Positions 2,956-47,364 of a stretch of 52,436 nucleotides of DNA are shown here, piece after piece. This DNA is from a virus (lineage: Duplodnaviria > Caudoviricetes). Under the pieces are notes generated by a model, which did not search any database, was not told where the DNA came from, and was given only the letters and a program-made list of their open reading frames with translations. Within the stretch, counting starts at the first letter, position 1, and each line of letters begins with the position of its first letter. The stretch covers positions 1-52,436 of IMG/VR virus record IMGVR_UViG_3300025168_010295; one strand, 5' to 3'. A program made the translations under genes and the position numbers.

Positions 2956-3199
2956 GAACTTAATTATAAAGATACAAAAAGAAGCGTCTACTAAAACAAA
3001 AGGTGGACTTATTTTAGCTGATATGCACAGAGAAGATATACGTTACAGAAAAGCTGAAGTATTAAATACTGGAAGCGAAGTTGTAGGTGTTAAAGACGGT
3101 GATCAGATATACTTTGATCGTCATGCTGGGCATGGCATAGAAATAGATAAAGAAAAGTTTCACGTTATAAAACTACAAGACGTTGTTGTAATACTATGA
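2939..3199 (+). CDS. groES: Co-chaperonin GroES (Cpn10)
   Basis: Mobile loop KTKGGLIL, VKDGDQIYF, 86 aa; overlaps the groEL 3' end. Confidence 0.92.
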   Translation: MKAIGKNLIIKIQKEASTKTKGGLILADMHREDIRYRKAEVLNTGSEVVGVKDGDQIYFDRHAGHGIEIDKEKFHVIKLQDVVVIL

Positions 3200-10876: not shown

Positions 10877-11104
10877 ATGGATTCTGTTATAAGAAAGATC
10901 AGTATTGGTTCTGATTATAAAAATGATGCAATGCATTATTCCGTAGGTCAACAAGTTTATGGCGGCCATGAGATCGCATATATTTTATTTGAAGATACAG
11001 ATCGTTCTTATAATATTCATATAAAGAAAAACAACGAGGTATTGCCATGGAAGAAATTTAATTCTAACATGGCGGTATCTGTTGAGTATGATTTAGAATA
11101 TTAA
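10877..11104 (+). CDS. Hypothetical protein
   Basis: 75 aa, TAATG-coupled to the next gene. Confidence 0.75.
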   Translation: MDSVIRKISIGSDYKNDAMHYSVGQQVYGGHEIAYILFEDTDRSYNIHIKKNNEVLPWKKFNSNMAVSVEYDLEY

Positions 11105-11709
11105 TGAAAAGTGTATATGATTTTATCATAAAGCCTGTAGGTAATGTTTATGATAATTCTATAGATGTAGACGGCGAAGAGCTTTTATTAAATACTAGTA
11201 TTGAAAAATATAGATTTGTAAATAATAAAGCTATTGTTGTTTCTACACCTCTTGCTTTTAATACATCTATAGAAGAAGGAGATGAAATTATAGTTCATCA
11301 TAATGTCTTTAGAAGATATTATAATATGAAAGGTAAAGAAGTTAATAGTAGTAAGTTTTTTAAAGACGATCTTTACTTTTGTCAAATAGATCAAATATAT
11401 TTATATAAAAAAATATATAAGTGGTACGCGTTTGCAGACAGATGCTTTGCTATGCCACTTAAAAATAATAATGATCTAGAACTAGATAAAGAGCAAAAGC
11501 TTATTGGTATACTAAAATATGGTAATAAGTCCTTAGAAGCTAAGGGAATAAGCGAGGGTGATACTATTGGGTTTACGCCTAACAGTGAGTTTGAATTTAT
11601 TGTAAATGACCAAAGGCTTTATTGTATGAAATCAAATGATATTGTAATTAAATATGAGCACCAAGAAAACCAAGTTGAATATAATCCAAGCTGGGCAAAA
11701 AGCAGTTGA
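11104..11709 (+). CDS. Tandem double GroES-like co-chaperonin
   Basis: Two Cpn10-like halves: DFIIKP...IEEGDEIIV and DRCFAMP...GILKYGN...ISEGDTIGF...EFIVNDQRLYCMKSNDIV. Confidence 0.6.
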   Translation: MKSVYDFIIKPVGNVYDNSIDVDGEELLLNTSIEKYRFVNNKAIVVSTPLAFNTSIEEGDEIIVHHNVFRRYYNMKGKEVNSSKFFKDDLYFCQIDQIYLYKKIYKWYAFADRCFAMPLKNNNDLELDKEQKLIGILKYGNKSLEAKGISEGDTIGFTPNSEFEFIVNDQRLYCMKSNDIVIKYEHQENQVEYNPSWAKSS

Positions 11710-31098: not shown

Positions 31099-34000
31099 AT
31101 GGCTAGAAATAAAGAGCAAGTTGATCAATTAAAAAAATTAGTAGATCAATTAAGATCTGAAAATTTATCTACAGACGAAATACAAGCTAAGGTTGATGAA
31201 CAAAAAGCTTTGTTTGATGCTGAGCAAACAACTACTGTAGAAGTTACAGACGAAATACAAACTGACTCTACAGAGGGAAAGACAAACGATGTTGCAACAG
31301 TGGATGCGGCTGTGACATCGGAACCGGACACAGCATCCGAGAGTACGGAATCAGAGCCGGACGATATTTTATCGGGATTAGAAAAAATTAAAGACGTACG
31401 TGAAATAGATAAACGTATTGATAAAATAACATCTACTAAAGCCACTAAGTTTTTTGAAGCAGGAGAAATAAGTCCTTTAGATTCTCCAAAACGGATAGCT
31501 CAATATAAAGAATTAATCAATAGAAGAAACAATATAATAGGTGACGCTTATAAACTAGGTCAAACTCAGACTTACCAGCAAAAAGACTTTGATCCTATGA
31601 GTGCTGCTGAAATACAAACTGAAAGAGAGGGAGCTCCAGAAGGAGGAGTTAAACTAGCTTACGTTCCTTTTACTGTAGACGGTGAAGTTGTCGGTACTAC
31701 TATGGAGCCAGTTGGATTACAAGAGGTAGTAGTAACAGCTGAACAATATAAAGAGCGTGAAAGACAAGTACAAAGTGAAGCTTATATTAATTTTCTAGAA
31801 CAATCTGGTTTATCAACAGAACCACTATCTCGAGAAAAGTTTGAAGCTGAAAAAGAAAAAGAAGGTAATATAACAGAAATAAAAACTATGCCTTATAGAG
31901 GTTTAGATTTACTTCAATCTTTTGAAAACATAGGAGCTTCTTTATCTGGGCTTCAACAAACAACACAAGAAAAAGAAGATTTTAAAAATCAATATGAAGA
32001 TTATCTTTCTTTAATGAAAGACGAAAAAGTTAGTTTAGAGCGAGAAGTTCCTGGACTTTTATCTAGCACTGGTGCTGTAATTTCCAATACGCTTTTACAA
32101 ATTGGAGGTACTGATGATAGAGCTCTTTTAAATTTAGCTTATCTTACAAATTCTATATCTTCTGATACTTATAGAAATATATTTGGTGTAAATCTTGGTG
32201 ATAAACTAAAAGAACAGGCTGTTAAAGGACTTGGTGTTATAGATACTAAAATAAATTATTTAAATTCATTAACAGGTGATGTTGCGCAGTTTACAGATAT
32301 ACCAGATGTTGAAGGTGTAAAAAAAGTAACTTCAGGTTTAGCCGCTACTTTAAATGCTGTATCTAGTTTTGGCGCTACAGTAGCTACAGCTATACCAACT
32401 AGTGGCTACTCTATATATAGCGATATGATTGCTAATAATATTAAATCTTATAATGATGCTAAAGCTCAAAGATTTGGTATTGACGTTGTTGAACTTGCTA
32501 AACGCGGAGAAACAGAAATTGTAATACCTGCTACGTTAGGAAGTATAGGTGCTCAATTAGAAAAACTTGGTATAAAAGGAGTTGGAAGAGCTATAAGTAA
32601 AATGTCTCCAGGCGCTATGCAAACTGTTTTTGCTTTATTTAATTCAGGTACAACAGAAAGCGTTACTGAATGGTCACAAAATCAACTTGAAACATACAAT
32701 GAAGCTTTAGGAAAAGGTCTTACAAATAGCGAGGCTATTGACCTTGTTGTTAAAGAAATGACTTCTAAACAAAGTATAGAAAGCGCTTTGCAAGGATTTG
32801 CTGGAGGTGGTGGTGCAATGCTTAGTTCTAGTTTAATAAAATCAGCTAGCAGTTTACGCACTCCTTCTGAAAACAAAAGAGTATCTAATCTTATAAACAA
32901 ACTAAACGAATTAGAAAATAGTAAGTATAGAAAAAATTTAAACGCTGATGATATTGCTCAAATAAACACAGCTCAAGAACAAATAAGAGTTGATCTAAGA
33001 GATATTGTATTAAGTAATAACGAATTAACAACAACTTTAACACCAGCACAAATTCAACAAGTAGATATAGCCTCTGATTATTTAACTTCTTCTACTAGTA
33101 GAATAAACGAAATAGAAGCTAGTGATAAATACAGCGAGCAAGACAAAGAAAATATTATAGCTAGTATAAATCAAAAAAGAAAAATAGCTAGCGATGTAAT
33201 ATATGATATACGTAACGAAGCAGAAAAATTAGAAGCACAAGTATTTACTATAAAAGATTTATCTAAGTTTGTTAAAGGTGTTAAAGTAGAGGAAGCTAAA
33301 GATGATGCTGAAGCTTTAAAATTTGTTGATGAAAATAATTTAGAAATAAAAGCTTCTACGGAGCAAGGCTATATACTACAAAATCCTGAAACAGGTGAGC
33401 AGACGATAGTTATAAATAAAGAGACCGCTCAAAACCAACAAGCTGTAAACGTAGCCGCTCATGAATTTTTACATGCTATATTATATTCTACAATAAAAAA
33501 TAATCCTAAGGCAGCTACAAATCTTGGTAAATCTCTAATGGCTGAGTTAAATAAAATAGACATAGACCAAATAGAAGATAGTGACTTTAAAAAACGTATG
33601 AAGCAATATGCTGAAAAACCTATTGACCAACAAATGGAAGAGGCTATTACGTTGTTTTCTGATGCTTTAGTTACAGGGGATATAAATTTTAAAGAAAATA
33701 TAGCTACTAGAATAGGTGATAGATTTCGTAGACTTGCTCAAAAGTTTGGTGTTAAAATAAAATTTAACAATGGTAGAGATGTATATAACTTTGTAAAAGA
33801 TTATAACAAAAGTATTGAAAAAGGTGAATTATCTATAGCTCAAGTACGGGCAGCCGCTGAAGGTGTTGAAGGTGAATTAGTTACACCAGCTGAACAACAA
33901 GCTGATGAGCAAATAATTAAAGAATCAAGATCTGAAGAAGCTTCTAATCGTGTTCAAGAAATATACGATGAGCAAGGTGAAGCTGGAACTTTTGAAATTA

Positions 34001-37000
34001 TAGAACAGTTTAAACCTATTACAAGTAGAATAGTAGAGCGTAGAAGTGAAGCGCCTAGCTTTGATCGTCAATTACTTACAGACGAAATAGAAACTGGTCG
34101 GCGTGGTATTATAGATCTTATTAAAGAATATAATCCAGAATCAGGTGTACCGCTAGCGGCTTATATAAATAAGTTTCTACCAGCTCGAGCAATTGAAGCA
34201 TCGAAAAGAGTTCTTGGTGAAGAGTTTACAGAAGATGTCACTGAAGTAAGAGGTGTTGCGGCTGAAGAAGTTGTGACTGAAACTGCTATTAAACCAGAGG
34301 CAAAAGCTATTGATCCGTTTAGGATTATGCCTAATGTAAGAGAAAATGCGGTAACAGAAGTACAAGAAAGCATTGCAGATAAAGACGTAGACGTTACTAC
34401 GGTTACATATAAGGAGCTTAAAGATGTTGCACCATACCAAACAGTGGCAGACTTTTTTAACATACCTGTAAGCAGAATAAAAAATCCTAAAGATAATTTG
34501 CGTAAGTCAGATGACGTAGCAAATATACAGCGTTGGATATTAAAAAACGAACCTACATTAAAGAATTTATTTACTGAAGCTAACAGAGATGTAATTGAAG
34601 TAACTGAAGGTAATAGAGTTATACGTCAAGGTGGTGAACCCACTGCTATACCTAGAAATCTACTAAATAAGTTCTATACTAAAGGTGATCGTGTTGGTAA
34701 TAACTTTCAATGGAAACTTAAGCCTTACGATCGTACAGCTTTCTTAGAAGCTGTAGGTATTAAAGACGGTAAGGTTGATCCTAACTTTACACCACGTGCT
34801 GCAGAAGCTCAAACTATTAAAGGTATACTAGATATGTATACTAGAAACTTAGGCAACGTAGCTGCAAGAGATATTATAGAAGGTCGCGAAGATATTGCAC
34901 CCGCTGAAAGAGCTAGAGTACAAGCTGAGGTTGCCAAAGGCAAGCCAAGAATAATGCTTAGTCGATCACAAGAAAACGCTTTTATATATTCACCGACATC
35001 TGAAAATGATTTTGCTCAAGATATAAAAGGTTATTCTGAGATAGTAAAAGAAGCTCGTCAAACACCTATAAACATGCAAACTTTAGTTGGTGTAAACAAA
35101 TTTTTAAATAATTCTGTATCTTCAAGGTTAGTTAGTAAATTACCAAAAGAACTTTGGTTAAGTCTTACGGGTTCAACTGAAAGTGCTTTAACAGAACAAA
35201 CAAAAAAAGAATTAAAAGATCTTGGTATACAAGGTAAACCTTTTACAGTAGGTGAAACTACTTTAAGAAAATTGACTGGTAATTTTCCTTTTTTAAATAA
35301 AGGTGAAGCGGAAGCTTGGATAGCTAAGCAAGAAGCTAATGGAATAATTTTTCCAGAAGCTAGTAATAATATAAAAGCTTTATATAAAAGATTTAATTAT
35401 AAAGCTAAAAAAAATAATTTAGAAAAATTACTAAAAGATCCTAAATTTATTGCTGAACAAAATGCTTCTCTTGAAGGTTTAAAAGAAATATGGTTAATTA
35501 TTCAAAAAGAAATTTCAAAAAATCCTACAGTTATTATACCACTTGCAGCTGCTATATTTTCATCAACTAGCGCTTATCAAGGTACTACAATGCGCGTGGC
35601 AGCTCCTGTTAGGTTTTTTGAAAAAGGTTATAGAGATAATCCATTTGTAGAAGAACACACGTTACCAGCTAGTAGTTTAGCTAAAAAATTATTAGTTGAA
35701 GCTATTAATGGCAATATAAACAAAGTATGGCCTGATGTAACTAGAAATTTTCAACAAGGTGCTTTACTAGAAACTTCTGATAAAAAATTAAAAGGATATG
35801 GACCTGGAGAGTTTAGGTTTGATTATACTTCTGTAACTCCAGATGGGTGGAGAATAACAGATAATGTTTGGGCCAGATACTTTAATACAAATGTTGCTGA
35901 AAACCGTTTTGGTATAGATACAAACAATATAATAACAGAAGCTGGTTTAAGTATATTTGATTTGTACGGTGTAAATGCTTCTGGAAATATAGTATCAAAC
36001 GTTTTTAATTTAACACAACAAAAAGCAGCTCAAGTAAATAACAATAAAGTTCCTAAAAACTTTAGGGTTATGGCTAGCAAGTCTATGCCAAATGTTTTAG
36101 AAAACATGTCTAATCTAGACGCTGACGCTAAGCAAGCTAATAAAGAGTTTTACGATAGTGTTGATCTTAATAAAGAGTTTAACGATATACTAGAAGTTAA
36201 AACAGGTATTGCATCTGAGAAAAGATACAAGCGTGTTAAAGCAGAAGTAGTTGGAGCTAACAAAGGTAGGTTCCAGTTTTTTATACCTCCGTCAGCTGAA
36301 GACTTTACAGGTTTGTTATACTCAACACTTACTAAAGGTAAACTTGGTGATGCTCAAATGGCTTGGTACAAAAAAAACTTGCTAGATCCGTATGGTAAAG
36401 CAATGAACGAATTATCATCAGCTCGTATAGCTATGATGAACGATTATAAAGCTTTGAAAAAAGAGCTTAAGCTTGTACCAAAAGATTTACGTAAGAAAGT
36501 TCCAGGCGAACCGTTTACTCAAGAGCAAGCTGTAAGAGTTTATATATGGCAGAAGCAAGGTATGTCTGTTCCAGGTATAAGTGAAACTGATATGCAAGAC
36601 TTATCTGATTTTGTAGAAGGTAAAGAAGATTTAAAAACTTTTGCAGATCAACTAATGTATATACAAAAAGGTGATCAATACGCTGGACCTAAAGAAGGTT
36701 GGCCAGCTGGTACGATTACAACTGATATGCTTGAAGGTCTTAACACTATTAAGCGAGCTAAAGCTTTAGAACAATGGCAGACTAATGCAGATGAAATATT
36801 CAGCGAAGAAAATCTAAACAAACTAGAAGCCGCGTATGGTAAACCATATCGCTTAGCTATGGAGAATATGCTACAGCGTATGAAGTCTGGTCGTAACAGA
36901 AACTTCCAAGGCGATACGCTTACAGGTAGATTTACTGACTGGGTTACAGGTAGTATTGGTACTATAATGTTCTTCAACACAAGATCAGCATTGCTACAAA

Positions 37001-38172
37001 CTATATCTAGTATTAACTTTGTTAACTTCACTGATAACAATATACTAGCTGCAGGTAAAGCTTTTGCAAACCAGAAACAATTTTGGTCTGACTTTATGAC
37101 GCTTATGAACTCTGACTTCTTAAAAGAACGTCGTGGTGGTTTACGTATCAACGTAAGTGAAGCTGATATTGCAGACATGGCTAAAAAAGGTGGAGCTAAA
37201 GGTGTTATAAATAAACTACTTGAGTTTGGTTTTACGCCTACACAAATAGCAGATAGCTTTGCTATAGCATCAGGTGGCTCAGCGTTTTATCGTAATCGTA
37301 TTAAGACTTATAAAAAACAAGGTATGACAGATGCTGAAGCTGAAGCTCAAGCGTTTGTAGACTTTAGAGAGACAGCGGAAGAGTCTCAGCAGTCGTCAAG
37401 ACCTGATAGAATATCTATGCAACAAGCAGGTCCATTAGGACGTCTTGTATTAGCTTTTGCTAACACACCAGCTCAGTATGCTAGACTTATAAAGAAAGCG
37501 GCTAGCGATCTTAAGAATGGTCGAGGTGATGCTAAGACTAATATAAGTAAGATTATATACTACGGTGTAGCACAGAACTTATTGTTTAACGCGCTGCAAC
37601 AAGCTTTGTTTGCGTTTGCATTTGATGATGACGAAGAAGATACAGAAGAGCAGCAGAAAAAATATGTTGGTATAGCCAACGGTATGATGGATTCATTGCT
37701 AAGAGGTATGGGAATTGGCGGTGCTGTAGTTTCAGTAGGTAAAAACTCTATCATACGTATTATAAACGAGATGGAAAAGAAACAGCCTAAGCTTGAAAAA
37801 GTAGGTTATGAAATTACTAAACTATCTCCACCTATATCTGCTAAGCTATCACGTATAAATCAAGCTGCAAGATCTTATCAATGGGATAAAAAAGATATGA
37901 TGGAAAAAGGTTGGAGCTTAGATAACCCAGCTTACTTAGCAAGCGCTAATGTTATAGCAGCGCTTACCAACATACCACTTGACAGAGCTGTAAAGAAAAC
38001 TAACAACGTAGTACAAGCTACCTCACAAGATCTAGAAACTTGGGAACGCTTAGCTTTACTAGGTGGTTGGCAAGACTGGGAAATCGGTATTGACGAAGAA
38101 AAACCTAGTAACAAACCACAGCCTAGAAAAACAAAATCAAGAACTAAAAAACGTAAAACTAGAAAAAGATAA
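31099..38172 (+). CDS. Giant (2357 aa) internal virion/polyvalent protein with zincin motif, sigma-70-like module and EHxxP nuclease-like motif
   Basis: Last of three ejection-type genes; HEFLH at aa 788, sigma region-2-like at aa ~965-1037, HTH at ~1113, EHTLP at ~1519. Confidence 0.8.
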   Translation: MARNKEQVDQLKKLVDQLRSENLSTDEIQAKVDEQKALFDAEQTTTVEVTDEIQTDSTEGKTNDVATVDAAVTSEPDTASESTESEPDDILSGLEKIKDVREIDKRIDKITSTKATKFFEAGEISPLDSPKRIAQYKELINRRNNIIGDAYKLGQTQTYQQKDFDPMSAAEIQTEREGAPEGGVKLAYVPFTVDGEVVGTTMEPVGLQEVVVTAEQYKERERQVQSEAYINFLEQSGLSTEPLSREKFEAEKEKEGNITEIKTMPYRGLDLLQSFENIGASLSGLQQTTQEKEDFKNQYEDYLSLMKDEKVSLEREVPGLLSSTGAVISNTLLQIGGTDDRALLNLAYLTNSISSDTYRNIFGVNLGDKLKEQAVKGLGVIDTKINYLNSLTGDVAQFTDIPDVEGVKKVTSGLAATLNAVSSFGATVATAIPTSGYSIYSDMIANNIKSYNDAKAQRFGIDVVELAKRGETEIVIPATLGSIGAQLEKLGIKGVGRAISKMSPGAMQTVFALFNSGTTESVTEWSQNQLETYNEALGKGLTNSEAIDLVVKEMTSKQSIESALQGFAGGGGAMLSSSLIKSASSLRTPSENKRVSNLINKLNELENSKYRKNLNADDIAQINTAQEQIRVDLRDIVLSNNELTTTLTPAQIQQVDIASDYLTSSTSRINEIEASDKYSEQDKENIIASINQKRKIASDVIYDIRNEAEKLEAQVFTIKDLSKFVKGVKVEEAKDDAEALKFVDENNLEIKASTEQGYILQNPETGEQTIVINKETAQNQQAVNVAAHEFLHAILYSTIKNNPKAATNLGKSLMAELNKIDIDQIEDSDFKKRMKQYAEKPIDQQMEEAITLFSDALVTGDINFKENIATRIGDRFRRLAQKFGVKIKFNNGRDVYNFVKDYNKSIEKGELSIAQVRAAAEGVEGELVTPAEQQADEQIIKESRSEEASNRVQEIYDEQGEAGTFEIIEQFKPITSRIVERRSEAPSFDRQLLTDEIETGRRGIIDLIKEYNPESGVPLAAYINKFLPARAIEASKRVLGEEFTEDVTEVRGVAAEEVVTETAIKPEAKAIDPFRIMPNVRENAVTEVQESIADKDVDVTTVTYKELKDVAPYQTVADFFNIPVSRIKNPKDNLRKSDDVANIQRWILKNEPTLKNLFTEANRDVIEVTEGNRVIRQGGEPTAIPRNLLNKFYTKGDRVGNNFQWKLKPYDRTAFLEAVGIKDGKVDPNFTPRAAEAQTIKGILDMYTRNLGNVAARDIIEGREDIAPAERARVQAEVAKGKPRIMLSRSQENAFIYSPTSENDFAQDIKGYSEIVKEARQTPINMQTLVGVNKFLNNSVSSRLVSKLPKELWLSLTGSTESALTEQTKKELKDLGIQGKPFTVGETTLRKLTGNFPFLNKGEAEAWIAKQEANGIIFPEASNNIKALYKRFNYKAKKNNLEKLLKDPKFIAEQNASLEGLKEIWLIIQKEISKNPTVIIPLAAAIFSSTSAYQGTTMRVAAPVRFFEKGYRDNPFVEEHTLPASSLAKKLLVEAINGNINKVWPDVTRNFQQGALLETSDKKLKGYGPGEFRFDYTSVTPDGWRITDNVWARYFNTNVAENRFGIDTNNIITEAGLSIFDLYGVNASGNIVSNVFNLTQQKAAQVNNNKVPKNFRVMASKSMPNVLENMSNLDADAKQANKEFYDSVDLNKEFNDILEVKTGIASEKRYKRVKAEVVGANKGRFQFFIPPSAEDFTGLLYSTLTKGKLGDAQMAWYKKNLLDPYGKAMNELSSARIAMMNDYKALKKELKLVPKDLRKKVPGEPFTQEQAVRVYIWQKQGMSVPGISETDMQDLSDFVEGKEDLKTFADQLMYIQKGDQYAGPKEGWPAGTITTDMLEGLNTIKRAKALEQWQTNADEIFSEENLNKLEAAYGKPYRLAMENMLQRMKSGRNRNFQGDTLTGRFTDWVTGSIGTIMFFNTRSALLQTISSINFVNFTDNNILAAGKAFANQKQFWSDFMTLMNSDFLKERRGGLRINVSEADIADMAKKGGAKGVINKLLEFGFTPTQIADSFAIASGGSAFYRNRIKTYKKQGMTDAEAEAQAFVDFRETAEESQQSSRPDRISMQQAGPLGRLVLAFANTPAQYARLIKKAASDLKNGRGDAKTNISKIIYYGVAQNLLFNALQQALFAFAFDDDEEDTEEQQKKYVGIANGMMDSLLRGMGIGGAVVSVGKNSIIRIINEMEKKQPKLEKVGYEITKLSPPISAKLSRINQAARSYQWDKKDMMEKGWSLDNPAYLASANVIAALTNIPLDRAVKKTNNVVQATSQDLETWERLALLGGWQDWEIGIDEEKPSNKPQPRKTKSRTKKRKTRKR

Positions 38173-39549: not shown

Positions 39550-41313
39550 TTATCCGTCGCAAGCAGCACAGTCAGGATCCATAGCTTGTTTAGCAATGTC
39601 ACCGCGTAGTACTGATTCAGTACGCATATAGTATAAGGTCTTGATACCTTTCTTCCAAGCATCCATATGCACTTGGTTAATCCACTTAGGTGTAGCCTCA
39701 GAGGGAAACGCTAGGTTTAAACTAACTGATTGATCTATATACTGTTGACGTATACCAGCTTGATTAACAAGCTCTAGTTGATTAATTTCTTTGAAAGTTT
39801 TAAACACGTTTTTAACTTTATCAAAGCCTGTAGTTTCTAAATCATCTTGCTCAGATAATACCACTAGCTTTTTATTAACATAGCCGTAGTCATCTAATGG
39901 TAGGTCTTGTACGCTACCACCGTCAGCCATTATCTTATCCCAAACCTCTTTAGTATTTAATCCAGCTTTACGTAAAACCTTTTCTAGTTCTTTGTTTTTC
40001 CTAATGAACGTACCCTTCGCGCTTTGTTCAGTGAAAACATTAGCGGCCCAAGGCTCAATACCAGGACTAACATTACCGGCAAGCTTACTATTAGACACAG
40101 TAGGAGCAATAGCCCTAAGATGAGTATTACGAAGCCCAGTGCCAACGCACCACAAAGGTTCACCATAAAGTTCAGCGAGATCTCTACTCGCTCGCTCAGA
40201 TTCGATTTTAATCTGGCTAAATATTCTTCTAGTTTCATATTGTGCTGTTAATCCCTCGAAGGGTATTCCGTTTTTTTGTAAGTACGTGTGCCAGCCCAAT
40301 ACTCCAAGGCCAAGCGCTCTACCTTTTTCCGCTGATCTAACTGAATTCGCAAAGCCAACCTTGCCTTTCGCTTTCTGTATAAACTCTTCAAGTACTCCGT
40401 CCAAGAACCAAATAGCATCGTATATAAGGTTTGTATTCTTCCACTCTTCATATCTTGATATATTTAAACTTGATAAGCAGCAAACAAAGCTATGGCTTTC
40501 ATCTGTGTGTAATGTAATCTCACTACAGATATTCGTCATGTGTACTTTTAAGGCGTTGTCTTTGTATGCTTTTGGATTTGCTTTGTTAGTATTTCCTTTA
40601 AACATAACATACGGTTCTCCAGTTGCTTTTCGTTTTCTAATAAGTTTACTCCATCGAGCTCTAGCGTCTGCATCTCCTTGTTCAAGACGCCGCATAAACT
40701 TATCACCAACAACTGCGCATTGATGTAAGTTAAGCGACTGTCTGTTAACATCTCCTTTAGGTTCTCTGATCTCAAGCCACTCTTCAAAATCATCGTGCTC
40801 AATGTTAATATTAACTGAGGCAGCTCCTCGTCTAACCGATCCTTGATTTGTAGCAAGTATTGTTGAGTCATATATTTTGCAGAAAGGTACGACTCCGTCT
40901 GATGTTCCATTGCCTGTAATTTTAGCGCCAGCGGGTCTGATTTGATTTATACCAATGCCAACTCCACCGCCGTGCTTAGCGAGCAACATCATCTCTAAGT
41001 TCTTACCTCCTATATCGTGTATGCTATCTGCTACATCAATACCAAAGCAACTAATAGGTAAGCCACGATCAGTGCCTGTATTACTAAGTACAGGGCTAGC
41101 AAGGTTAAGCCAACCTTTCCAGATATAATCAAAAAACGTTTCACTAAGCTCTGGCCTTTCGAGTCTACGCGCAACTGTTTTACATACTCTTTGGTATGCG
41201 TCTCTTGGTGTTTCATCATATAGTAAATATCCTCCTGATATAGTTTTTTTATATACATCTGTATCACCCCACTCAGGGTAATCTATAGATTTTTTCCACT
41301 CGTTTTTCCACAT
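39550..41313 (-). CDS. nrdA: Ribonucleotide reductase class I alpha subunit (no ATP cone)
   Basis: PISCF, TNICSEI, CCLSSLN, IAPTVS, IKTLYY and C-terminal CAAC. Confidence 0.95.
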   Translation of the reverse strand: MWKNEWKKSIDYPEWGDTDVYKKTISGGYLLYDETPRDAYQRVCKTVARRLERPELSETFFDYIWKGWLNLASPVLSNTGTDRGLPISCFGIDVADSIHDIGGKNLEMMLLAKHGGGVGIGINQIRPAGAKITGNGTSDGVVPFCKIYDSTILATNQGSVRRGAASVNINIEHDDFEEWLEIREPKGDVNRQSLNLHQCAVVGDKFMRRLEQGDADARARWSKLIRKRKATGEPYVMFKGNTNKANPKAYKDNALKVHMTNICSEITLHTDESHSFVCCLSSLNISRYEEWKNTNLIYDAIWFLDGVLEEFIQKAKGKVGFANSVRSAEKGRALGLGVLGWHTYLQKNGIPFEGLTAQYETRRIFSQIKIESERASRDLAELYGEPLWCVGTGLRNTHLRAIAPTVSNSKLAGNVSPGIEPWAANVFTEQSAKGTFIRKNKELEKVLRKAGLNTKEVWDKIMADGGSVQDLPLDDYGYVNKKLVVLSEQDDLETTGFDKVKNVFKTFKEINQLELVNQAGIRQQYIDQSVSLNLAFPSEATPKWINQVHMDAWKKGIKTLYYMRTESVLRGDIAKQAMDPDCAACDG

Positions 41314-41901: not shown

Positions 41902-42870
41902 TTACCAAATATCTTCGAAGTCCTCACCTTCGTTAGCTTTCGAATAATCTGTCGGCCGTACCGCGAAAAAATCAGTATGAGTGAGCCCGCCGGTAAGATG
42001 ATAGAACCAATCAAGATTATCTGCTGCAGCCTTGTCATACGTGAAGTACGAATCAAGGTTAGTGTAACCAAGTTCAACCAGTTTTTCATTTGTTCTTTTC
42101 TTTATAAAGTGTTTTAAATCGTTTGACTTAATACCTTCAATGTCACCCATCTCAAACATCTTGTCTATATATTTGTACTCAAGATCAACCATAGTCTCTG
42201 CAGCTTTAATAATATCTTTTTTACAAAGATCTTTTAGTTGATTGTTCTCTGCGCACATATCACGGTATAGTTTACAACCCATTTTGCTATGCAGGCTTTC
42301 GTCACGCACAGACCATTTCATCTGTTGCCCTATTCCTTTAAGCATGTTACGCAGCTGAAAAGAATATAGAACAGCGAAAGCAGAATACAAACTAACCCCT
42401 TCAGCGAAGGCGGAAAAAACAGCAAGGCTACGAGCAATGCCACGTGGGTCATTACCGTCATAACCAACCAGGTTATCAAATCTATTCGCGGTTGCTTCCT
42501 CATGAAGGAAGGCTTCAAAGTTTTCAAGTCCAAGTGTTTCATTTAAATAGCTATATGCGACAGCGTGTATCGTTTCTTGCGAACCAAACATCATTGCCAT
42601 TTGTTGTATCTCGTGTTTAGGAAACCAACCTACTACTTTCTGCGTCCAATAATCTGACACAGCACATTCAGTCTGAGCAAAGCCTAGTAGTATATTTCCC
42701 ACTAGGTTTTTCTCTTCGTCTGTTAGTTTCTCTTTCCAGTCTTTAACATCGCCTTGCATTGGTATCTCGGTGTGTAACCAAAAAGCCTGCGCTTGCTTAA
42801 GCCAACCTTCAGTATAGTACTCTGGGTACTCAAACGGTTTATACGCTACGCGCTCGTCAAACAGTCCCAT
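41902..42870 (-). CDS. nrdB: Ribonucleotide reductase class I beta subunit
   Basis: KPFEYP, FW, ETIHAVAY, EGVSLYSAF, DESLH and DFF motifs. Confidence 0.95.
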   Translation of the reverse strand: MGLFDERVAYKPFEYPEYYTEGWLKQAQAFWLHTEIPMQGDVKDWKEKLTDEEKNLVGNILLGFAQTECAVSDYWTQKVVGWFPKHEIQQMAMMFGSQETIHAVAYSYLNETLGLENFEAFLHEEATANRFDNLVGYDGNDPRGIARSLAVFSAFAEGVSLYSAFAVLYSFQLRNMLKGIGQQMKWSVRDESLHSKMGCKLYRDMCAENNQLKDLCKKDIIKAAETMVDLEYKYIDKMFEMGDIEGIKSNDLKHFIKKRTNEKLVELGYTNLDSYFTYDKAAADNLDWFYHLTGGLTHTDFFAVRPTDYSKANEGEDFEDIW

Positions 42871-43303: not shown

Positions 43304-43734
43304 TCCTTTTGATTTTGTGGTTTATATAATGTAACTCCATGCAGATGATCAACTACGTATCTTTTGAACATCTTCCAGCGTAGTGGAAATGATTCATTAG
43401 CTCTACCTTTAGTTTCAATAATAAAACCTTGGCCAATAAAATCAGGCGTATACTTTATGTTCAGTATCTTTTTGCTACCTCTATTTTTGTACTCACCTTT
43501 ACCATTACCGCATCGTTCATAAGACTCATTAGGAAAATCAAAGCCAGAGAATATCTCGTATGTTTGTCCTTCGTATACAGCGTGTATCTTAGCTTTCTTC
43601 AAAGCCATATACATATACCGCTCAAGGCCAGAGGCAAAGTTAATACCATCGTATGATATCTTCCTTGCTTGTACTGGTCCTTTCTTTTTGCTACGTTTTT
43701 TAAACTTTTTCCTTATCATAGTGTAGTCCGTCAT
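43258..43734 (-). CDS. T7 endonuclease I-like Holliday junction resolvase (PD-(D/E)XK)
   Basis: FASGLE, YTPDF and IIETKG motifs. Confidence 0.85.
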   Translation of the reverse strand: MTDYTMIRKKFKKRSKKKGPVQARKISYDGINFASGLERYMYMALKKAKIHAVYEGQTYEIFSGFDFPNESYERCGNGKGEYKNRGSKKILNIKYTPDFIGQGFIIETKGRANESFPLRWKMFKRYVVDHLHGVTLYKPQNQKECDETIRLILDLRNK

Positions 43735-43996
43735 TACCGTTCTGACCGATGATGTTCATACGTTTCAGCATAGCCTCTTCGATCTCATCACCTAAACAGT
43801 ATCGTGCTGCTTCAATATAAAGCAACGCGTCCATTAGTTCTTCTTGCACATCGACTAAAAACCTATCTAAGTCCTTAACTTCGTTTTTAATCTCACCCAT
43901 CATTGTAGCACCGTACTTTTCTTGACCAACAAGACTACGTTGATCCATCTTAGCTAGTACTCTACGTACAACTTCATCTTTAGTTTTAATTTGCAT
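43700..43996 (-). CDS. All-alpha NTP-pyrophosphatase-like protein
   Basis: R...G.EKYG.TM...VQEELMDALLYI (EExxD); probable start ATG 43996. Confidence 0.55.
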   Translation of the reverse strand: MQIKTKDEVVRRVLAKMDQRSLVGQEKYGATMMGEIKNEVKDLDRFLVDVQEELMDALLYIEAARYCLGDEIEEAMLKRMNIIGQNGNDGLHYDKEKV

Positions 43997-44756
43997 CTTT
44001 AACAAATGTACCGTTAACCATTTTACCTGTGCGCTTGGCAATCACATCATATGCAGACTTTATACAGTCTTCAATAAACATATCTTCAAACTTAGCGATG
44101 CTTGTGAGCACAACAATCATATCACCTATAGCATCTTGTATCTCTGCTTTATCGTTACTAAGTAAAGCTTCTGCAAGCTCACCTGATTCTTCCATAAGCT
44201 TTAAGTACTGGGTTTTGCTATCGCCTTTATCGTATATGCCTTTATCAGTAGCCCAACTACGTATATCATCAAAAATATTACCTGGTTTTTCTATAGCTGG
44301 TTCAGCTAAGAACGCTTCATAATAAGCTTTGTTATATATATAACTACGATCTTCGTTATACATAGACATCTTAGCATTAGACATTATCCATGGTATTGTT
44401 TGTTCGTTAATCTCGAACTGGCCGTGACCAAAGCCACTTATATTTACCCGCCATTGTAAACCTATGTTATCCATTAAATGTCCTTTGAGTTTGTTTAAAG
44501 GTACTGGAAATGTTGAGGTTTGTTCTGTTGCGTTTATCTTCATTTTATTAAATAAATTTTTATACAATTTCCTGTCTGTCTTATAGCCATAAGACTTTTG
44601 AAGTTCTATTTCGCGGTCTGATATATAATCTATATCGTCTGACTGCTCAAGAACTTCATACTCATTCTCCTTATATCCTTGTATAAGGGTTACGCGAGTA
44701 TTAAGATCACGTGTTACGCCTATCTTTTTACCCGGTATGTGATACAAATAATACAT
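43986..44756 (-). CDS. GIY-YIG-like nuclease domain fused to a MazG-like dNTP pyrophosphatase
   Basis: N-terminal YYLY...KIGVT.DL..R...E; C-terminal KLMEESGELAEA...DAIGD.IVVL...AY..I..RTG. Confidence 0.75.
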   Translation of the reverse strand: MYYLYHIPGKKIGVTRDLNTRVTLIQGYKENEYEVLEQSDDIDYISDREIELQKSYGYKTDRKLYKNLFNKMKINATEQTSTFPVPLNKLKGHLMDNIGLQWRVNISGFGHGQFEINEQTIPWIMSNAKMSMYNEDRSYIYNKAYYEAFLAEPAIEKPGNIFDDIRSWATDKGIYDKGDSKTQYLKLMEESGELAEALLSNDKAEIQDAIGDMIVVLTSIAKFEDMFIEDCIKSAYDVIAKRTGKMVNGTFVKDAN

Positions 44757-45410
44757 CTAATTTAATTTATCGTTATACAAATGTAAGTTGTGCGCATGGT
44801 GGTAATACCAGCCGGTTTGAATAGACAATCTGTCTGCAACCATTTCTTGCAACGATGCAAACTGATACTGATCATTGCAGAAACCGTACCAGAGATCATT
44901 AGATCGCATATAGACGGACATACAAAGCTTATCATCAATGATACTAAACTGAACTGCATACGTACATGGCGTGTCGTGTCTGTAATCGTATATTTCTTTA
45001 CCATCGTATATACTTACCGCAGCTTGCCTAGTACTTTTATTTTTCTTAATTATGTCTACTACTTTACCTAACTGGTTTTCTCTGTTCCATTGCCAACCAT
45101 AATTAGAGTTGACATTGCCGTTAGCATCTGCCATACGTTTCCATATCTCAGGTACCTTACCATACAGCTCACCCAACTTACTTATGTTTCTGTTACCAGA
45201 TAAATACCAAGCCCATTCGGCTGCAGCATATTTCTGATTCCATTTTCTATATCCCGCTTTTATCTTCTTATCAGAAGGGTTGTGAATATAAAACCCAACA
45301 TTAAACAAAGCTTTAGTGTTATCAAAGTCTACACCTTTGTCTTTAATTTTGATGTAAAAATAATCAAAAGCTTCGCTTGCTGTTTTAAAATTACTTTTCG
45401 TGCTTATCAT
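44757..45410 (-). CDS. Thymidylate-synthase-fold enzyme, dCMP hydroxymethylase (T4 gp42)-like
   Basis: E.WY, P.IW...A, NSNYGW, DTPCT, MRSNDLWYGFCND and LHLY; Asp at the dUMP/dCMP specificity position. Confidence 0.8.
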   Translation of the reverse strand: MISTKSNFKTASEAFDYFYIKIKDKGVDFDNTKALFNVGFYIHNPSDKKIKAGYRKWNQKYAAAEWAWYLSGNRNISKLGELYGKVPEIWKRMADANGNVNSNYGWQWNRENQLGKVVDIIKKNKSTRQAAVSIYDGKEIYDYRHDTPCTYAVQFSIIDDKLCMSVYMRSNDLWYGFCNDQYQFASLQEMVADRLSIQTGWYYHHAHNLHLYNDKLN

Positions 45411-45651
45411 AATAATATTTATAAAACTTATAAATGTTCTCCCATATCATATCTTTAATATAGACATGAGGCGACCTGTTTATTTTACCGTTTAATGTTA
45501 TATCTATATACCATTCAGCCGGACCTTTAGCAAAAGGTGATATGTATATCTTGTTTCGTATACACCATAGCCTAGCCTCGTACTCTTCATCGGTTGGGTT
45601 ATAGCTACCCATATCCCACTCTTTGCTTTTCTTATGCCAAGCAGCTGCCAT
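45391..45651 (-). CDS. Hypothetical protein
   Basis: 86 aa abutting the helicase stop. Confidence 0.7.
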   Translation of the reverse strand: MAAAWHKKSKEWDMGSYNPTDEEYEARLWCIRNKIYISPFAKGPAEWYIDITLNGKINRSPHVYIKDMIWENIYKFYKYYYDKHEK

Positions 45652-47364
45652 TTATTCCCATGGCATTTTTTCACCATCAGCAATTGCATGCTGTACATGT
45701 GGTGCAAACCTACCCGAGGCTGGTTGCCATTTGAAATGAGCTTCAGCACCGTTCTCACCTAAGTTTTGAAACTTTACTTTAAGTATCTTTGCTTTAACGG
45801 TTTTCTCTTCATAGTCTCTGTGAACTAATATACCGTGGTAACTAGCATCGTACCATTCGCCACCACCTTTAATGTTATACATAGTAGGTTCTTCAATCTT
45901 ACCGTCTTTGTCTTTGTACATCTTGGTTGGGTGCGCCACAATAAACACTAGTACATCATACTTTTTAGCAAACATTTCTATCTTAGTTAGATACTCCATT
46001 GTGTAACGATTAATGTCTTCCGTTTTGCAGTCTACATCTCTAACTTTATTAAACGGATCTATAACAAGGCATTTAATACCTTTACGTTTAACAAGCTCAG
46101 CACCTTTACGTAGTACAGACTCAAGCGTGTAACGTTCCATATCGATAAAGAAAAAGTTATCATTAACATGTTCAGCTACTTGTCGCCACTTATCTGTACC
46201 AATATCACGTTTAGAAGGCATGTCGCCCCAAACTTTACGCATTAACTTATGAGCGTGTAAATATGTCGGCGCATTTTCTGGACTAGCAAATGCTGTCTTC
46301 CAACTATAATTAGCGTTGTACCCAACAACCATCTGGTCGACAAAGTCACTCTTGCCGGAACTAGGGATGCCAGTGACAGTAATAAATTGACCAGTGTAAG
46401 TTGAAAAGATATCATCAAAATTCGGTAAGCCAATTTGATATCCTGGTTTAAAGCCATTAGTAACAAAGTCGGTAACTTCATTTTCAATATCCCTGAATGT
46501 CGTAACATTCTCAAGCGGTACTGGTCTTGCTTTTGTAATACGCTCTGCCAGTTTTTCTTTTCCATACTTAATTAGATATTCATTAGCGTCTTTACAATCT
46601 TCAAAGTCTGCTAAGAAACAAACCTCAGCACCTAATCTCCTAACTAGTTCTTGTTGTAAAGCCTGACCAGCATCATCTGAGTCAACAGCTAGTATTACTT
46701 TTTCTTTATCGTCAAAATAATCAATACAATTATCCAGATAATCTAGGTTGTTTGTATTAAGCGTTGCACCATTTGGTACTGACAATGCATTTTTAATACC
46801 AGCTTCATGCAAAGCTAGCACGTCCATTTCACCTTCAGTTATTACACAATGATCGTAACCAACAATGCTATTGATATTATAAAATACTTTTTCAGCTCCT
46901 TTGTAAAGCTTAAAGTTTTTTCTACCATCTCTGTATTTAACATTGATAAGCTGATCACCTATAATATAATTAAACTGAATTGTATTCTCGGTCTTACCGG
47001 TCTGTGGCATCCACTCAGGACCTTGACTAACGTTTAAGTCGTCAAGTGTCCTTTGTGATATACCTCGTGATTCAAACCATTCAGTTACTTTGTCTTTAAC
47101 GGGGTTAAGCTTAACGACATCAGGTCTAGTATAAACCTTCTCACTAGCGCCTTTACGCTGATAAGTATGTAACTGAAAAGTTGTATTACAATTGTGACAA
47201 GTACCGAGACCACGTTCCCAATCATAGCTAGCACATTCTGCTTTCTGATTTTTGGGTTGTCTAGTGTGAGAGCAAAGCGGGCATATACCCTGTGCTTTGC
47301 CTTCTTTAAGACTGTATTGATTGAACTCGTCAATCATATATCCATTGATCTCTGTTGTCTGCAT
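45652..47364 (-). CDS. T7 gp4/Twinkle-like primase-helicase
   Basis: Zn ribbon CPLC...CHNC, TOPRIM EGEMD and DSDDAG, KDANE, Walker A GIPSSGKS, VIDP and VAHP. Confidence 0.93.
   Translation of the reverse strand: MQTTEINGYMIDEFNQYSLKEGKAQGICPLCSHTRQPKNQKAECASYDWERGLGTCHNCNTTFQLHTYQRKGASEKVYTRPDVVKLNPVKDKVTEWFESRGISQRTLDDLNVSQGPEWMPQTGKTENTIQFNYIIGDQLINVKYRDGRKNFKLYKGAEKVFYNINSIVGYDHCVITEGEMDVLALHEAGIKNALSVPNGATLNTNNLDYLDNCIDYFDDKEKVILAVDSDDAGQALQQELVRRLGAEVCFLADFEDCKDANEYLIKYGKEKLAERITKARPVPLENVTTFRDIENEVTDFVTNGFKPGYQIGLPNFDDIFSTYTGQFITVTGIPSSGKSDFVDQMVVGYNANYSWKTAFASPENAPTYLHAHKLMRKVWGDMPSKRDIGTDKWRQVAEHVNDNFFFIDMERYTLESVLRKGAELVKRKGIKCLVIDPFNKVRDVDCKTEDINRYTMEYLTKIEMFAKKYDVLVFIVAHPTKMYKDKDGKIEEPTMYNIKGGGEWYDASYHGILVHRDYEEKTVKAKILKVKFQNLGENGAEAHFKWQPASGRFAPHVQHAIADGEKMPWE

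What the first reader, a model, noticed from the sequence alone, without database searches (positions are those of the whole stretch)
44757..45410. The 'thymidylate synthase' is T4 gp42-like with the dCMP-specifying Asp, predicting modified cytosine in the genome
Seen: PEIWKRMA...NVNSNYGW, DTPCT and MRSNDLWYGFCND. Established: ThyA has Asn at the specificity position (GLPFN), whereas T4 dCMP hydroxymethylase has Asp (MRSNDVVFGFRND) and the NSNYGW motif. Inference: the enzyme makes 5-hydroxymethyl- (or 5-methyl-) dCMP, giving restriction-resistant DNA. Automatic annotation would probably mislabel it thyA. No glycosyltransferase is visible in the window, so any further modification is unknown.
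Basis: partly seen in the sequence, partly recalled or inferred. Interest (0 to 1): 0.72.

Follow-up and report, generated by a model that had tools for sequence, protein, structure and literature searches.

The report
Phage dCMP hydroxymethylase, not thymidylate synthase
A marine flavobacterial phage carries a thymidylate-synthase look-alike whose active site matches phage T4's dCMP hydroxymethylase, so the phage probably puts 5-hydroxymethylcytosine in its DNA; this is a known anti-restriction trick in a new, very common phage group.

Summary
ORF 44757-45410 (-) encodes a 217-aa thymidylate-synthase-fold protein (Pfam PF00303, E 2.3e-26) with the quoted motifs.

In E. coli ThyA numbering it has C146, D177, D143, T147 and D169. 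It matches T4 gp42 at 11 of the 12 residues that surround C5 of the substrate. The same count is 7 for the Xp12 dCMP methylase, 7 for the SPO1 dUMP hydroxymethylase, 6 for ThyA and 6 for the RB69 5-hydroxy-dCMP synthase.

It keeps the Ser/Tyr/Asp water-activating trio of T4 gp42, lacks the ThyA C-terminal tail, and scores far below every NCBIfam ThyA cut-off.

All 112 representative homologues examined have Asp177 and Asp169. At least 582 related viral loci exist. In 72 of 73 loci with enough downstream sequence, a MazG-family pyrophosphatase follows directly; I predict it is a dCTPase. Here it is fused to a T5orf172/GIY-YIG-like domain.

No glycosyltransferase, dNMP kinase, deaminase or DNA polymerase was found in the window or in near-complete relatives. 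Whether 5hmC actually reaches the DNA therefore remains inference.

Verdict: a new member of a known kind, of moderate interest.

The parts
44757..45410 (-). 217-aa thymidylate-synthase-fold enzyme, predicted deoxycytidylate 5-hydroxymethyltransferase (T4 gp42 type). Key residues: E65, S102, Y104, R128, D146, C149 (nucleophile), T150, R169, S170, D172, D180 (cytosine-specifying), H210, Y212.
   Evidence: Pfam PF00303 E 2.3e-26. Residue mapping. AlphaFold2 model pLDDT 97.6. Foldseek top hits are MilA CMP hydroxymethylase (TMq 0.89), ThyA and T4 dCH (TMq 0.79). In a quick tree it lies in a starred clade with T4 gp42.
43986..44756 (-). 256-aa fusion protein. Residues 1-~70 are a T5orf172/GIY-YIG-like domain, residues ~75-150 a domain of unknown kind, and residues ~160-256 a MazG-family all-alpha NTP pyrophosphohydrolase (predicted dCTPase). 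Its ATG directly follows the TAG stop of the hydroxymethylase gene.
   Evidence: Pfam MazG 9e-06 (26.3 bits, cut-off 22) and PRA-PH 3.2e-04. MazG hit in 47 of 47, T5orf172 in 16 of 47 and MUG113 in 14 of 47 aligned homologues. Atlas feature hits to T5orf172 clusters. Invariant Y5, K11, G13, R21, E49 and E189, E190, E193, D208, D212. Fold hits to MazG, PRA-PH, DCTPP1 and S-2L MazZ over residues 156-256. Adjacent to the TS gene in 72 of 73 loci with room downstream.
43700..44041 (-). Conserved small ORF (up to 113 aa; the true start is probably internal) with a ...KYG...QEELMDA..Y... motif. It is a companion of the module and its function is unknown.
   Evidence: PHROG 11184 (unknown function) 1.3e-05. 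No Pfam hit. A homologue is present in 68 of 80 related loci, including the second phage lineage (L017, L020, L021, L027).
45391..45651 (-). 86-aa ORF of unknown function directly upstream, overlapping the hydroxymethylase start by 20 nt.
   Evidence: No Pfam, PHROG or NCBIfam hit. A homologue is at the same place in 53 of 80 related loci.
41902..42870 (-). Ribonucleotide reductase small subunit, in the same minus-strand nucleotide-metabolism and replication block.
   Evidence: PHROG 86, 4.2e-69.
39550..41313 (-). Ribonucleotide reductase large subunit.
   Evidence: PHROG 84, 9.2e-153.
45652..47364 (-). Primase/helicase upstream of the module. It is the only replication-fork enzyme found; no polymerase was found.
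   Evidence: PHROG 239, 8.8e-84. No DNA_pol_A or DNA_pol_B match in 3 of 3 near-complete relatives.

Best explanation
The gene encodes a folate-dependent deoxycytidylate 5-hydroxymethyltransferase of the T4 gp42 type. Cys149 attacks C6 of dCMP, and Asp180 reads and protonates N3 of cytosine. The methylene group of 5,10-methylene-THF is transferred to C5. The exocyclic methylene intermediate is then hydrated by a water held by Asp146, Ser102 and Tyr104, instead of being reduced by hydride transfer, which gives 5-hydroxymethyl-dCMP. The translationally coupled downstream gene supplies a MazG-family pyrophosphatase that most likely turns dCTP into dCMP. That would feed the enzyme and keep ordinary dC out of phage DNA, as gp56 does in T4. 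5hm-dCMP would then be phosphorylated by host kinases and built into phage DNA by the host polymerase, giving 5hmC DNA without a sugar. What is shown: the fold, all catalytic and specificity residues, family-wide conservation, the conserved gene pairing, and the absence of ThyA features. What is inferred: the product, the dCTPase specificity, and above all that 5hmC reaches the virion DNA.
For: 1. Residues in E. coli numbering. The query has E58, W80, Y94, R126, D143, C146, T147, M165, R166, S167, N168, D169, G173, D177, H207 and Y209. This is identical to T4 gp42 at 16 of 19 sites checked and at 11 of the 12 residues that PMC13326640 lists within 6 A of C5. The same count is 7 for Xp12, 7 for SPO1 gp29, 6 for ThyA and 6 for RB69 gp48.

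2. T4 dCH functional residues (passages of PMC6400193). 13 of 21 are identical, including E60, S94, Y96, D145, C148, D171, D179, H216, Y218 and the PABA-pocket residues Y56, I81, W82.

3. Only 5 residues follow the Y209 equivalent, against 55 in ThyA and 61 in Xp12.

4. The best NCBIfam ThyA equivalog scores 73 bits against a cut-off of 327.

5. Of 112 representative homologues, 112 have D177, 112 have D169, 107 have D143 and 102 have T147.

6. The AF2 model has pLDDT 97.6. The best structural match is the cytosine hydroxymethylase MilA (E 1.1e-19, TMq 0.89, rmsd 1.9). S170 and R128 sit at the positions that PMC5175136 links to deoxyribose preference.

7. In the quick tree the query shares a starred 69-row clade with T4 gp42. 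RB69/Atu_ph04 and SPO1/Colly_1 lie elsewhere.

8. Enterococcus phage VPE25 has a homologue (34.6% identity, same signature) next to a dUTPase-like gene and a beta-glucosyltransferase. Its DNA resists bisulfite, EcoRI and MspI and is cut by PvuRts1I (PMC4999554, passages).

9. In MetaGPA, Asp177 thymidylate synthases and PRA-PH-domain genes co-occur on contigs selected for modified cytosine (PMC8670742, passages).

10. A MazG homologue lies directly downstream in 72 of 73 loci, including a different phage lineage.

11. Natural fusions of this enzyme type with P-loop kinase domains exist (P0260, P0242).
Against: No activity was measured, and the closest characterised enzyme is only about 33% identical (T4 gp42, over 144 residues).

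The phage and its near-complete relatives show no dNMP kinase, no DNA polymerase A or B, no glycosyltransferase and no deaminase. T-even phages need their own dNMP kinase to use hm-dCMP (recalled knowledge), so the route to DNA is unproven.

Four of the T4 residues that hold the folate (the glutamate tail and the pterin water network: K28, R59, R177, R220) are not conserved. R127 is Gln.

The link between residue 143 and a hydroxymethyl product is described only as a correlation (PMC13326640). Xp12 itself has Asn, not a bulky hydrophobic residue, at that position.

A very short C-terminus is also seen in the flavin-dependent 5hodCMP synthases (12-14 residues after Y209).

The MazG domain shows no significant sequence similarity to T4 gp56 (BLASTP E 0.21), and its substrate is unknown.

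The two closest cultured relatives by terminase lack any TS-family gene (0 of 2), so the module is accessory.
Confidence: 0.72

Rival explanations
1. The enzyme does make 5hm-dCMP, but plain 5hmC DNA is not the end point. Either unannotated neighbours (orf86, orf113, the middle domain of the MazG fusion, or other unknown ORFs) modify it further, or, for lack of a kinase, little of it reaches DNA and the module mainly reshapes the dCTP pool.
For: No kinase, polymerase or transferase was recognised. Several conserved ORFs of unknown function flank the gene. In other lineages the same TS-MazG pair sits beside a PLP-dependent enzyme and two unknown ~300-aa proteins (L017, L074), which hints at further chemistry elsewhere.
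Against: None of the neighbours in this window has any transferase signature. The pairing with a MazG pyrophosphatase is what complete replacement of a base needs. 5hm-dCTP is a good substrate for many polymerases (recalled knowledge).
Confidence: 0.15
2. It is a dCMP methyltransferase of the Xp12 type, making 5-methyl-dCMP and 5mC DNA.
For: Asp at position 177 is shared with Xp12. The N177D/N229D mutants of ThyA methylate dCMP (cited in PMC8670742).
Against: The Xp12 enzyme keeps a ThyA-like C-terminal segment (61 residues after Y209, against 5 here). It has N143, P147, L165 and S168 where the query and T4 gp42 have D, T, M and N. It shares only 7 of 12 C5-shell residues with the query, against 11 of 12 for T4 gp42. 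Without the tail that seals the site, hydride transfer is not expected (PMC6400193).
Confidence: 0.07
3. It is a flavin-dependent 5-hydroxy-dCMP synthase like RB69 gp48 or DLP3 gp80.
For: Asp177, an acidic residue at 143 and a short C-terminus are shared with that group.
Against: The diagnostic D169N change is absent (D172 here). The two reference enzymes examined also differ at E58 (Phe), W80 and G173 (Val), all of which the query shares with T4 gp42. Only 6 of 12 shell residues are shared. RB69/Atu_ph04 lie in another part of the tree. No arabinose or glycosyl genes are present.
Confidence: 0.03
4. It acts on dUMP, as an ordinary thymidylate synthase or as a dUMP hydroxymethylase, as the automatic names say.
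For: Public sources and PHROGs call the family 'thymidylate synthase'. The phage has no other TS-family gene, is AT-rich and encodes ribonucleotide reductase.
Against: Asn177 is replaced by Asp in the query and in 112 of 112 homologues. H147, L143 and the C-terminal tail are absent. ThyA equivalog scores are 73 bits or less against cut-offs of 108-576. The dUMP hydroxymethylases SPO1 gp29 and Colly_1 keep Asn177.
Confidence: 0.03

Closest known systems
Bacteriophage T4 gp42, deoxycytidylate 5-hydroxymethyltransferase (PDB 1b5d, 6a9a)
   Same: TS fold. Cys nucleophile. Asp at the cytosine-specifying position. The Asp145/Ser94/Tyr96 water-activating set. Asp171. The NSNYGW and MRSND..GF.ND motifs. 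11 of 12 C5-shell residues. No ThyA C-terminal tail.
   Different: Only about 33% identity over 144 residues. The query is 29 residues shorter, with 5 rather than 28 residues after the HxY motif. K28, R59, R177 and R220 of the folate site are not conserved, and R127 is Gln. T4 has gp1 kinase (recalled), gp56, glucosyltransferases and its own polymerase; none of these was found here.
Thymidylate-synthase homologue of Enterococcus phage VPE25/VFW (DNA shown to carry modified, probably glucosylated, hydroxymethylcytosine; PMC4999554)
   Same: 34.6% identity, the same active-site signature, and 11 of 12 shell residues. It is followed by an NTP-pyrophosphatase-type gene.
   Different: VPE25 adds a beta-glucosyltransferase and a second sugar enzyme, and has its own Pol III alpha. 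Its enzyme has a 75-residue C-terminal extension.
Bacteroides phage BF486P2 gene 32 (annotated deoxycytidylate 5-hydroxymethyltransferase, uncharacterised)
   Same: It is the closest protein in a cultured phage: 45.5% identity, the same signature, and similar length (226 aa).
   Different: That phage has a second, divergent Asp177 paralogue and a dUTPase rather than a MazG neighbour. I found no data on its DNA: one literature search on the phage names gave one unrelated review.
MilA, CMP 5-hydroxymethylase of mildiomycin biosynthesis (PDB 5jnh, 5b6d)
   Same: It is the best structural match (TMq 0.89, rmsd 1.9). It has Asp at both position 143 and position 177.
   Different: MilA prefers ribo-CMP through Ala176 and Lys133. 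The query has Ser170 and Arg128, as the deoxy-specific enzymes do. MilA is about 100 residues longer.
Xanthomonas phage Xp12 dCMP methyltransferase and RB69 gp48 5-hydroxy-dCMP synthase
   Same: Asp177 and use of dCMP as substrate.
   Different: See the rival explanations. The query shares 7 of 12 and 6 of 12 shell residues with them respectively. Xp12 keeps the ThyA tail. RB69 has N169, F58 and V173.

Membership tests
dCMP hydroxymethylase (T4 gp42 type, EC 2.1.2.8) | Thymidylate-synthase fold with a catalytic Cys (T4 C148) | tested here: met
   PF00303 E 2.3e-26. AF2 pLDDT 97.6 and Foldseek hits to MilA, TS and T4 dCH. C149 is aligned with C148/C146.
dCMP hydroxymethylase (T4 gp42 type, EC 2.1.2.8) | Asp in place of ThyA Asn177 (T4 D179): cytosine specificity | tested here: met
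   D180 is in that column. The same holds in 112 of 112 homologues.
dCMP hydroxymethylase (T4 gp42 type, EC 2.1.2.8) | Acidic residue in place of ThyA Leu143 (T4 D145), plus Ser94 and Tyr96, which hold the substrate and proton-abstracting waters | tested here: met
   D146, S102 and Y104. The roles are taken from passages of PMC6400193.
dCMP hydroxymethylase (T4 gp42 type, EC 2.1.2.8) | Asp169 retained (it is Asn in the 5hodCMP synthases) | tested here: met
   D172. The rule is from PMC13326640, section 28.
dCMP hydroxymethylase (T4 gp42 type, EC 2.1.2.8) | No ThyA C-terminal tail sealing the folate site | tested here: met
   5 residues follow the Y209 equivalent, against 55 in ThyA and 28 in T4.
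dCMP hydroxymethylase (T4 gp42 type, EC 2.1.2.8) | Folate-binding residues of T4 dCH | tested here: inconclusive
   The PABA and pterin core (N53, Y56, E60, I81, W82, Y218) is conserved. K28, R59, R177 and R220 are not.
dCMP hydroxymethylase (T4 gp42 type, EC 2.1.2.8) | Makes 5hm-dCMP from dCMP and methylene-THF; 5hmC is found in virion DNA | not testable with these tools
   This needs an enzyme assay and nucleoside LC-MS.
Thymidylate synthase ThyA (EC 2.1.1.45) | Asn177, His147, Leu143, the C-terminal tail, and a score above the equivalog cut-off | tested here: not met
   D, T, D, and no tail. The best NCBIfam ThyA equivalog scores 73.1 bits against a cut-off of 327.
5-hydroxy-dCMP synthase (RB69 gp48 / DLP3 gp80 type) | D169N substitution | tested here: not met
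   Asp is retained. RB69 gp48 and Atu_ph04 both show Asn in the same alignment.
dCMP methyltransferase (Xp12 type) | Asp177 together with a ThyA-like C-terminal segment that allows hydride transfer | tested here: not met
   Asp177 is present, but the C-terminal segment is absent and only 7 of 12 shell residues are shared. The Xp12 gene was assigned here only as the sole PF00303 match in that genome.
CMP hydroxymethylase (MilA/BcmA type) | Ala176 and Lys133, which give ribose preference | tested here: not met
   Ser170 and Arg128 are at those positions. The rule is from PMC5175136.
MazG-family all-alpha NTP pyrophosphohydrolase (neighbour gene, C-terminal domain) | Pfam MazG above its cut-off; conserved acidic metal-binding residues; four-helix fold | tested here: met
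   26.3 bits against a cut-off of 22. E189, E190, E193, D208 and D212 are invariant in 47 sequences. VIA Z 9.2-9.5 to PRA-PH, MazG and S-2L MazZ over residues 156-256.
MazG-family all-alpha NTP pyrophosphohydrolase (neighbour gene, C-terminal domain) | dCTP as the preferred substrate (role of T4 gp56) | not testable with these tools
   The only support is gene context, plus DCTPP1 among many weak fold hits. There is no sequence similarity to gp56.
GIY-YIG superfamily, T5orf172 family (neighbour gene, N-terminal domain) | Pfam T5orf172/MUG113 match; conserved Tyr, Lys-Ile-Gly, Arg and Glu; beta-beta-alpha-beta-alpha core | tested here: inconclusive
   T5orf172 is hit in 16 of 47 homologues (best E 5.4e-05) but not in the window's own protein. 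There are Atlas feature hits. Y5, K11, G13, R21 and E49 are invariant. The predicted secondary structure fits. The fold searches were taken up by the MazG domain.

The most novel reading that the evidence does not exclude
A minimal, translationally coupled two-gene cassette (dCMP hydroxymethylase plus a nuclease-MazG fusion) is enough to replace cytosine by unglycosylated 5hmC in a phage that has no DNA polymerase and no nucleotide kinase of its own. The host's kinases and replicative polymerase would then do the rest. The fused T5orf172/GIY-YIG domain would act like T4 endonuclease II, cutting cytosine-containing host DNA and sparing 5hmC phage DNA. With at least 582 related viral loci, this would make 5hmC DNA common among marine flavobacterial podophages.
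Probability: 0.25. Interest if true: 0.6.

Novelty: new member of a known kind. Interest (0 to 1): 0.4.

Why it matters
Names such as 'thymidylate synthase' hide which phages carry modified DNA. Here a residue-level reading re-labels one gene, and with it a large uncultured marine phage group (at least 582 IMG/VR loci), as probable 5hmC producers.

That has four consequences:
- It bears on how these phages escape restriction and CRISPR systems.
- It bears on defences that target modified cytosine.
- It can bias methods that depend on cytosine chemistry, such as bisulfite or EM-seq and some restriction- or glycosylase-based preparations.
- It is a source of compact hydroxymethylases (217 aa) for enzymology.

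The absence of a phage kinase and polymerase poses a concrete question: can host enzymes alone carry a modified dNMP into DNA?

Tried and rejected
1. Read-through or fusion across the in-frame TAG-ATG junction between the two genes. Among 51 distinct junctions in related loci, 15 are in frame, which is about the one third expected by chance. Stop codons vary (TAA, TGA, TAG), and many junctions are ATGA or TAATG overlaps. This indicates translational coupling, not recoding.

2. An intron or homing-endonuclease split of a longer TS gene, suggested by the GIY-YIG-like neighbour. The 213-218 aa length is constant in close homologues. Nothing after the stop resembles the ThyA C-terminus. The nuclease-like domain is conserved and fused to MazG.

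3. TAG recoding of the whole genome. Long ORFs, up to 2357 aa, are intact under table 11.

4. A search for kinase, glycosyltransferase and gp56 relatives. I looked for P-loop motifs (only the helicase and the 2357-aa protein have one). I ran tblastn with the kinase domains of P0260 and P0242, RB69 p045, three glucosyltransferases, T4 gp56 and the VPE25 dUTPase, and found nothing below E 0.4. Pfam and PHROG scans of the window ORFs and of the 12.7 kb that a complete relative adds found none either.

5. The 747-aa ORF at 7674-9917 as a hidden polymerase. It matches a cyanophage fibre protein.

6. Palindrome avoidance as an indirect sign of modification. Observed/expected medians are 0.91 for C/G-containing 4-mers against 1.0 for AT-only, and 0.90 against 0.89 for 6-mers. 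This is uninformative.

7. Structural confirmation of the GIY-YIG domain.

8. Near-identical phage records: none (megablast).

9. Literature on the Bacteroides phage relatives: one search on their names found only an unrelated review.

Full report
**What is there.** The window is a complete IMG/VR virus record of 52,436 bases, estimated 82% complete. On the plus strand it carries GroEL/GroES, lysis genes, terminase, portal and structural genes. On the minus strand it carries a replication and nucleotide block: ligase, a sigma-like factor, Erf, an exonuclease, primase/helicase, the gene in question, a MazG fusion, a DUF1064 resolvase-like gene and both ribonucleotide reductase subunits. By terminase, its nearest cultured relatives are podophages of Flavobacterium, Cellulophaga, Tenacibaculum and Maribacter. 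There are 87 such records; identity is 45% to the elemo phages and 65% to an uncultured spring-water podovirus.

**The observation.** The ORF 44757-45410 (-) gives 217 aa with the quoted motifs. It belongs to the thymidylate-synthase family (Pfam E 2.3e-26; PHROG 160 at 1.3e-39).

**Which member of the superfamily.** Five chemistries are now known in this fold:
- dUMP to dTMP (ThyA).
- dUMP to 5hm-dUMP (SPO1 gp29).
- dCMP to 5hm-dCMP (T4 gp42).
- dCMP to 5m-dCMP (Xp12).
- dCMP to 5-hydroxy-dCMP, by flavin-binding enzymes such as RB69 gp48. This was reported in 2026 (PMC13326640; I read the abstract, sections 24 and 28, and passages).

That paper and MetaGPA (PMC8670742, passages) name the telling positions in E. 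coli numbering: 177 (Asn for uracil, Asp for cytosine), 143 (bulky hydrophobic for methyl, Asp or Glu otherwise), 169 (Asn in the hydroxylases) and 147.

I fetched one reference for each chemistry and aligned them with the query and 112 representative homologues.
- The query reads D177, D143, D169 and T147, as T4 gp42 does.
- It is identical to gp42 at 11 of the 12 residues within 6 A of C5. The counts for the others are 7 (Xp12), 7 (SPO1), 6 (ThyA) and 6 (RB69).
- The residues that the T4 ternary-complex study assigns to water activation and proton abstraction are all present: Asp145, Ser94 and Tyr96. So are Glu60, Asp171 and the PABA pocket. In all, 13 of 21 listed residues are identical. 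The misses are mostly side chains that hold the folate's glutamate tail.
- Ser170 and Arg128 mark a deoxyribose rather than a ribose substrate.
- The protein ends 5 residues after the HxY motif. It therefore lacks the tail that seals the ThyA site for hydride transfer, a tail that Xp12 keeps.
- Every NCBIfam ThyA equivalog scores far under its cut-off.
- The AlphaFold2 model is very confident (pLDDT 97.6). Its best structural neighbours are MilA, then ThyA and T4 dCH.
- In a quick maximum-likelihood tree (124 rows, one outgroup, SH-aLRT only), the query lies in a starred 69-row clade with T4 gp42. The 5-hydroxylases and the dUMP hydroxymethylases lie elsewhere. The tree is a weak test, because all non-reference rows were chosen for likeness to the query.

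**Relatives and context.** The family is large. There are 7,548 representative proteins at E up to 0.001 and at least 582 viral loci. Close homologues are 213-218 aa, so the short form is not a truncation. Public names for them, where given, are 'thymidylate synthase'.

All 112 representatives examined have Asp177 and Asp169. Five near-complete relatives (92-100% complete) have exactly one TS-family gene each. The two closest cultured relatives have none, so the gene is an accessory module of this marine lineage.

Two comparisons tie the signature to modified cytosine:
- Enterococcus phage VPE25 has the same signature and a TS, dUTPase-like, beta-glucosyltransferase cluster. Its DNA behaves as glucosyl-5hmC (PMC4999554, passages).
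- A T4-like Acinetobacter phage has the same signature beside two glucosyltransferases.

**The partner gene.** In 72 of 73 related loci with at least 1,500 bases downstream, a MazG-family gene follows directly. The gap is usually 0-13 bases or the genes overlap. This includes a different phage lineage in which MazG stands alone as 97 aa.

In the window the MazG domain is fused behind two further domains.
- The first is T5orf172/GIY-YIG-like: a Pfam hit in 16 of 47 homologues, Atlas feature hits, and invariant Tyr, Lys-Ile-Gly, Arg and Glu.
- The second is of unknown kind.
- The MazG acidic residues are invariant, and the domain's fold matches MazG, PRA-PH, DCTPP1 and S-2L MazZ.

By analogy with T4 gp56, and given the MetaGPA co-occurrence of TS and PRA-PH domains on modified contigs, I take it to be a dCTPase. 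This is inference: it shows no sequence similarity to gp56.

**What is missing.** I found no glycosyltransferase, no deaminase, no P-loop nucleotide kinase and no DNA polymerase. This holds for the window, for the 12.7 kb that a 100%-complete relative adds, and for six-frame searches of three near-complete relatives. Elsewhere in the family the enzyme is even fused to a kinase domain (P0260 and P0242), which shows that a dedicated kinase is often wanted. The path from 5hm-dCMP to DNA therefore has to rely on host enzymes, or on proteins not yet recognisable. This is the main reason for holding the DNA-level claim at about even odds, while the enzyme-level claim is stronger.

**Verdict.** It is a new member of a known kind. 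The points of interest are the abundance of the phage group, the minimal two-gene cassette in a phage without its own polymerase or kinase, and the nuclease-MazG fusion.

Noticed in passing
window 43986-44756 (-): The MazG pyrophosphatase is fused to an N-terminal T5orf172/GIY-YIG-like domain with invariant putative catalytic residues, plus a middle domain of unknown fold. In another phage lineage the MazG stands alone (97 aa). This may be a counterpart of T4 endonuclease II, but that idea is untested.
   Followed up: partly
L017:7258-10928 and L074:4491-9282: In a different phage lineage the same TS(Asp177)-MazG pair is preceded by a PLP-dependent enzyme (PALP), two unknown ~300-aa proteins and a DUF6378 protein. 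This looks like a candidate gene cluster for a further, unknown cytosine hypermodification.
   Followed up: no
P0260 (492 aa) and P0242 (440 aa): Natural fusions of an Asp177/Asp143 TS homologue with a P-loop thymidylate-kinase-like domain, one C-terminal and one N-terminal.
   Followed up: partly
whole window plus L090; relatives G001, G002, G005: This ~60-65 kb phage group has primase/helicase, ligase, Erf, an exonuclease and RNR, but no detectable family A or B DNA polymerase.
   Followed up: partly
window 43700-44041 (-): A small conserved ORF with a KYG...QEELMDA..Y motif accompanies the TS-MazG pair in 68 of 80 loci, and also in the second lineage. It might be another small all-alpha nucleotide hydrolase.
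   Followed up: partly
L093:2860-3522 (Agathobaculum phage AB434P2); L095:2932-4011 (Maribacter phage Colly_1): Two public annotations look wrong at the residue level. The 'deoxyuridylate hydroxymethyltransferase' of AB434P2 has Asp177, which is cytosine type. The 'thymidylate synthase' of Colly_1 has Asn177 with Asp143 and sits beside a beta-glucosyltransferase and sugar-nucleotide enzymes, which suggests glycosylated 5hmU.
   Followed up: no
L001:3156-3917 and L001:5989-6669 (Bacteroides phage BF486P2): Two divergent TS-family paralogues, both with Asp177, lie in one 53-kb phage with a dUTPase between them. The second paralogue has Leu at E58 and Leu at G173.
   Followed up: no
window 1399-3199 (+) and 11104-11709 (+): The phage encodes GroEL and GroES, and a second, longer GroES-like protein just upstream of the terminase.
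   Followed up: no
window 31099-38172 (+): A giant 2357-aa ORF in the structural block has an M78 peptidase-like segment (residues 748-888) and a P-loop motif at residue 810. It has no PHROG match.
   Followed up: no
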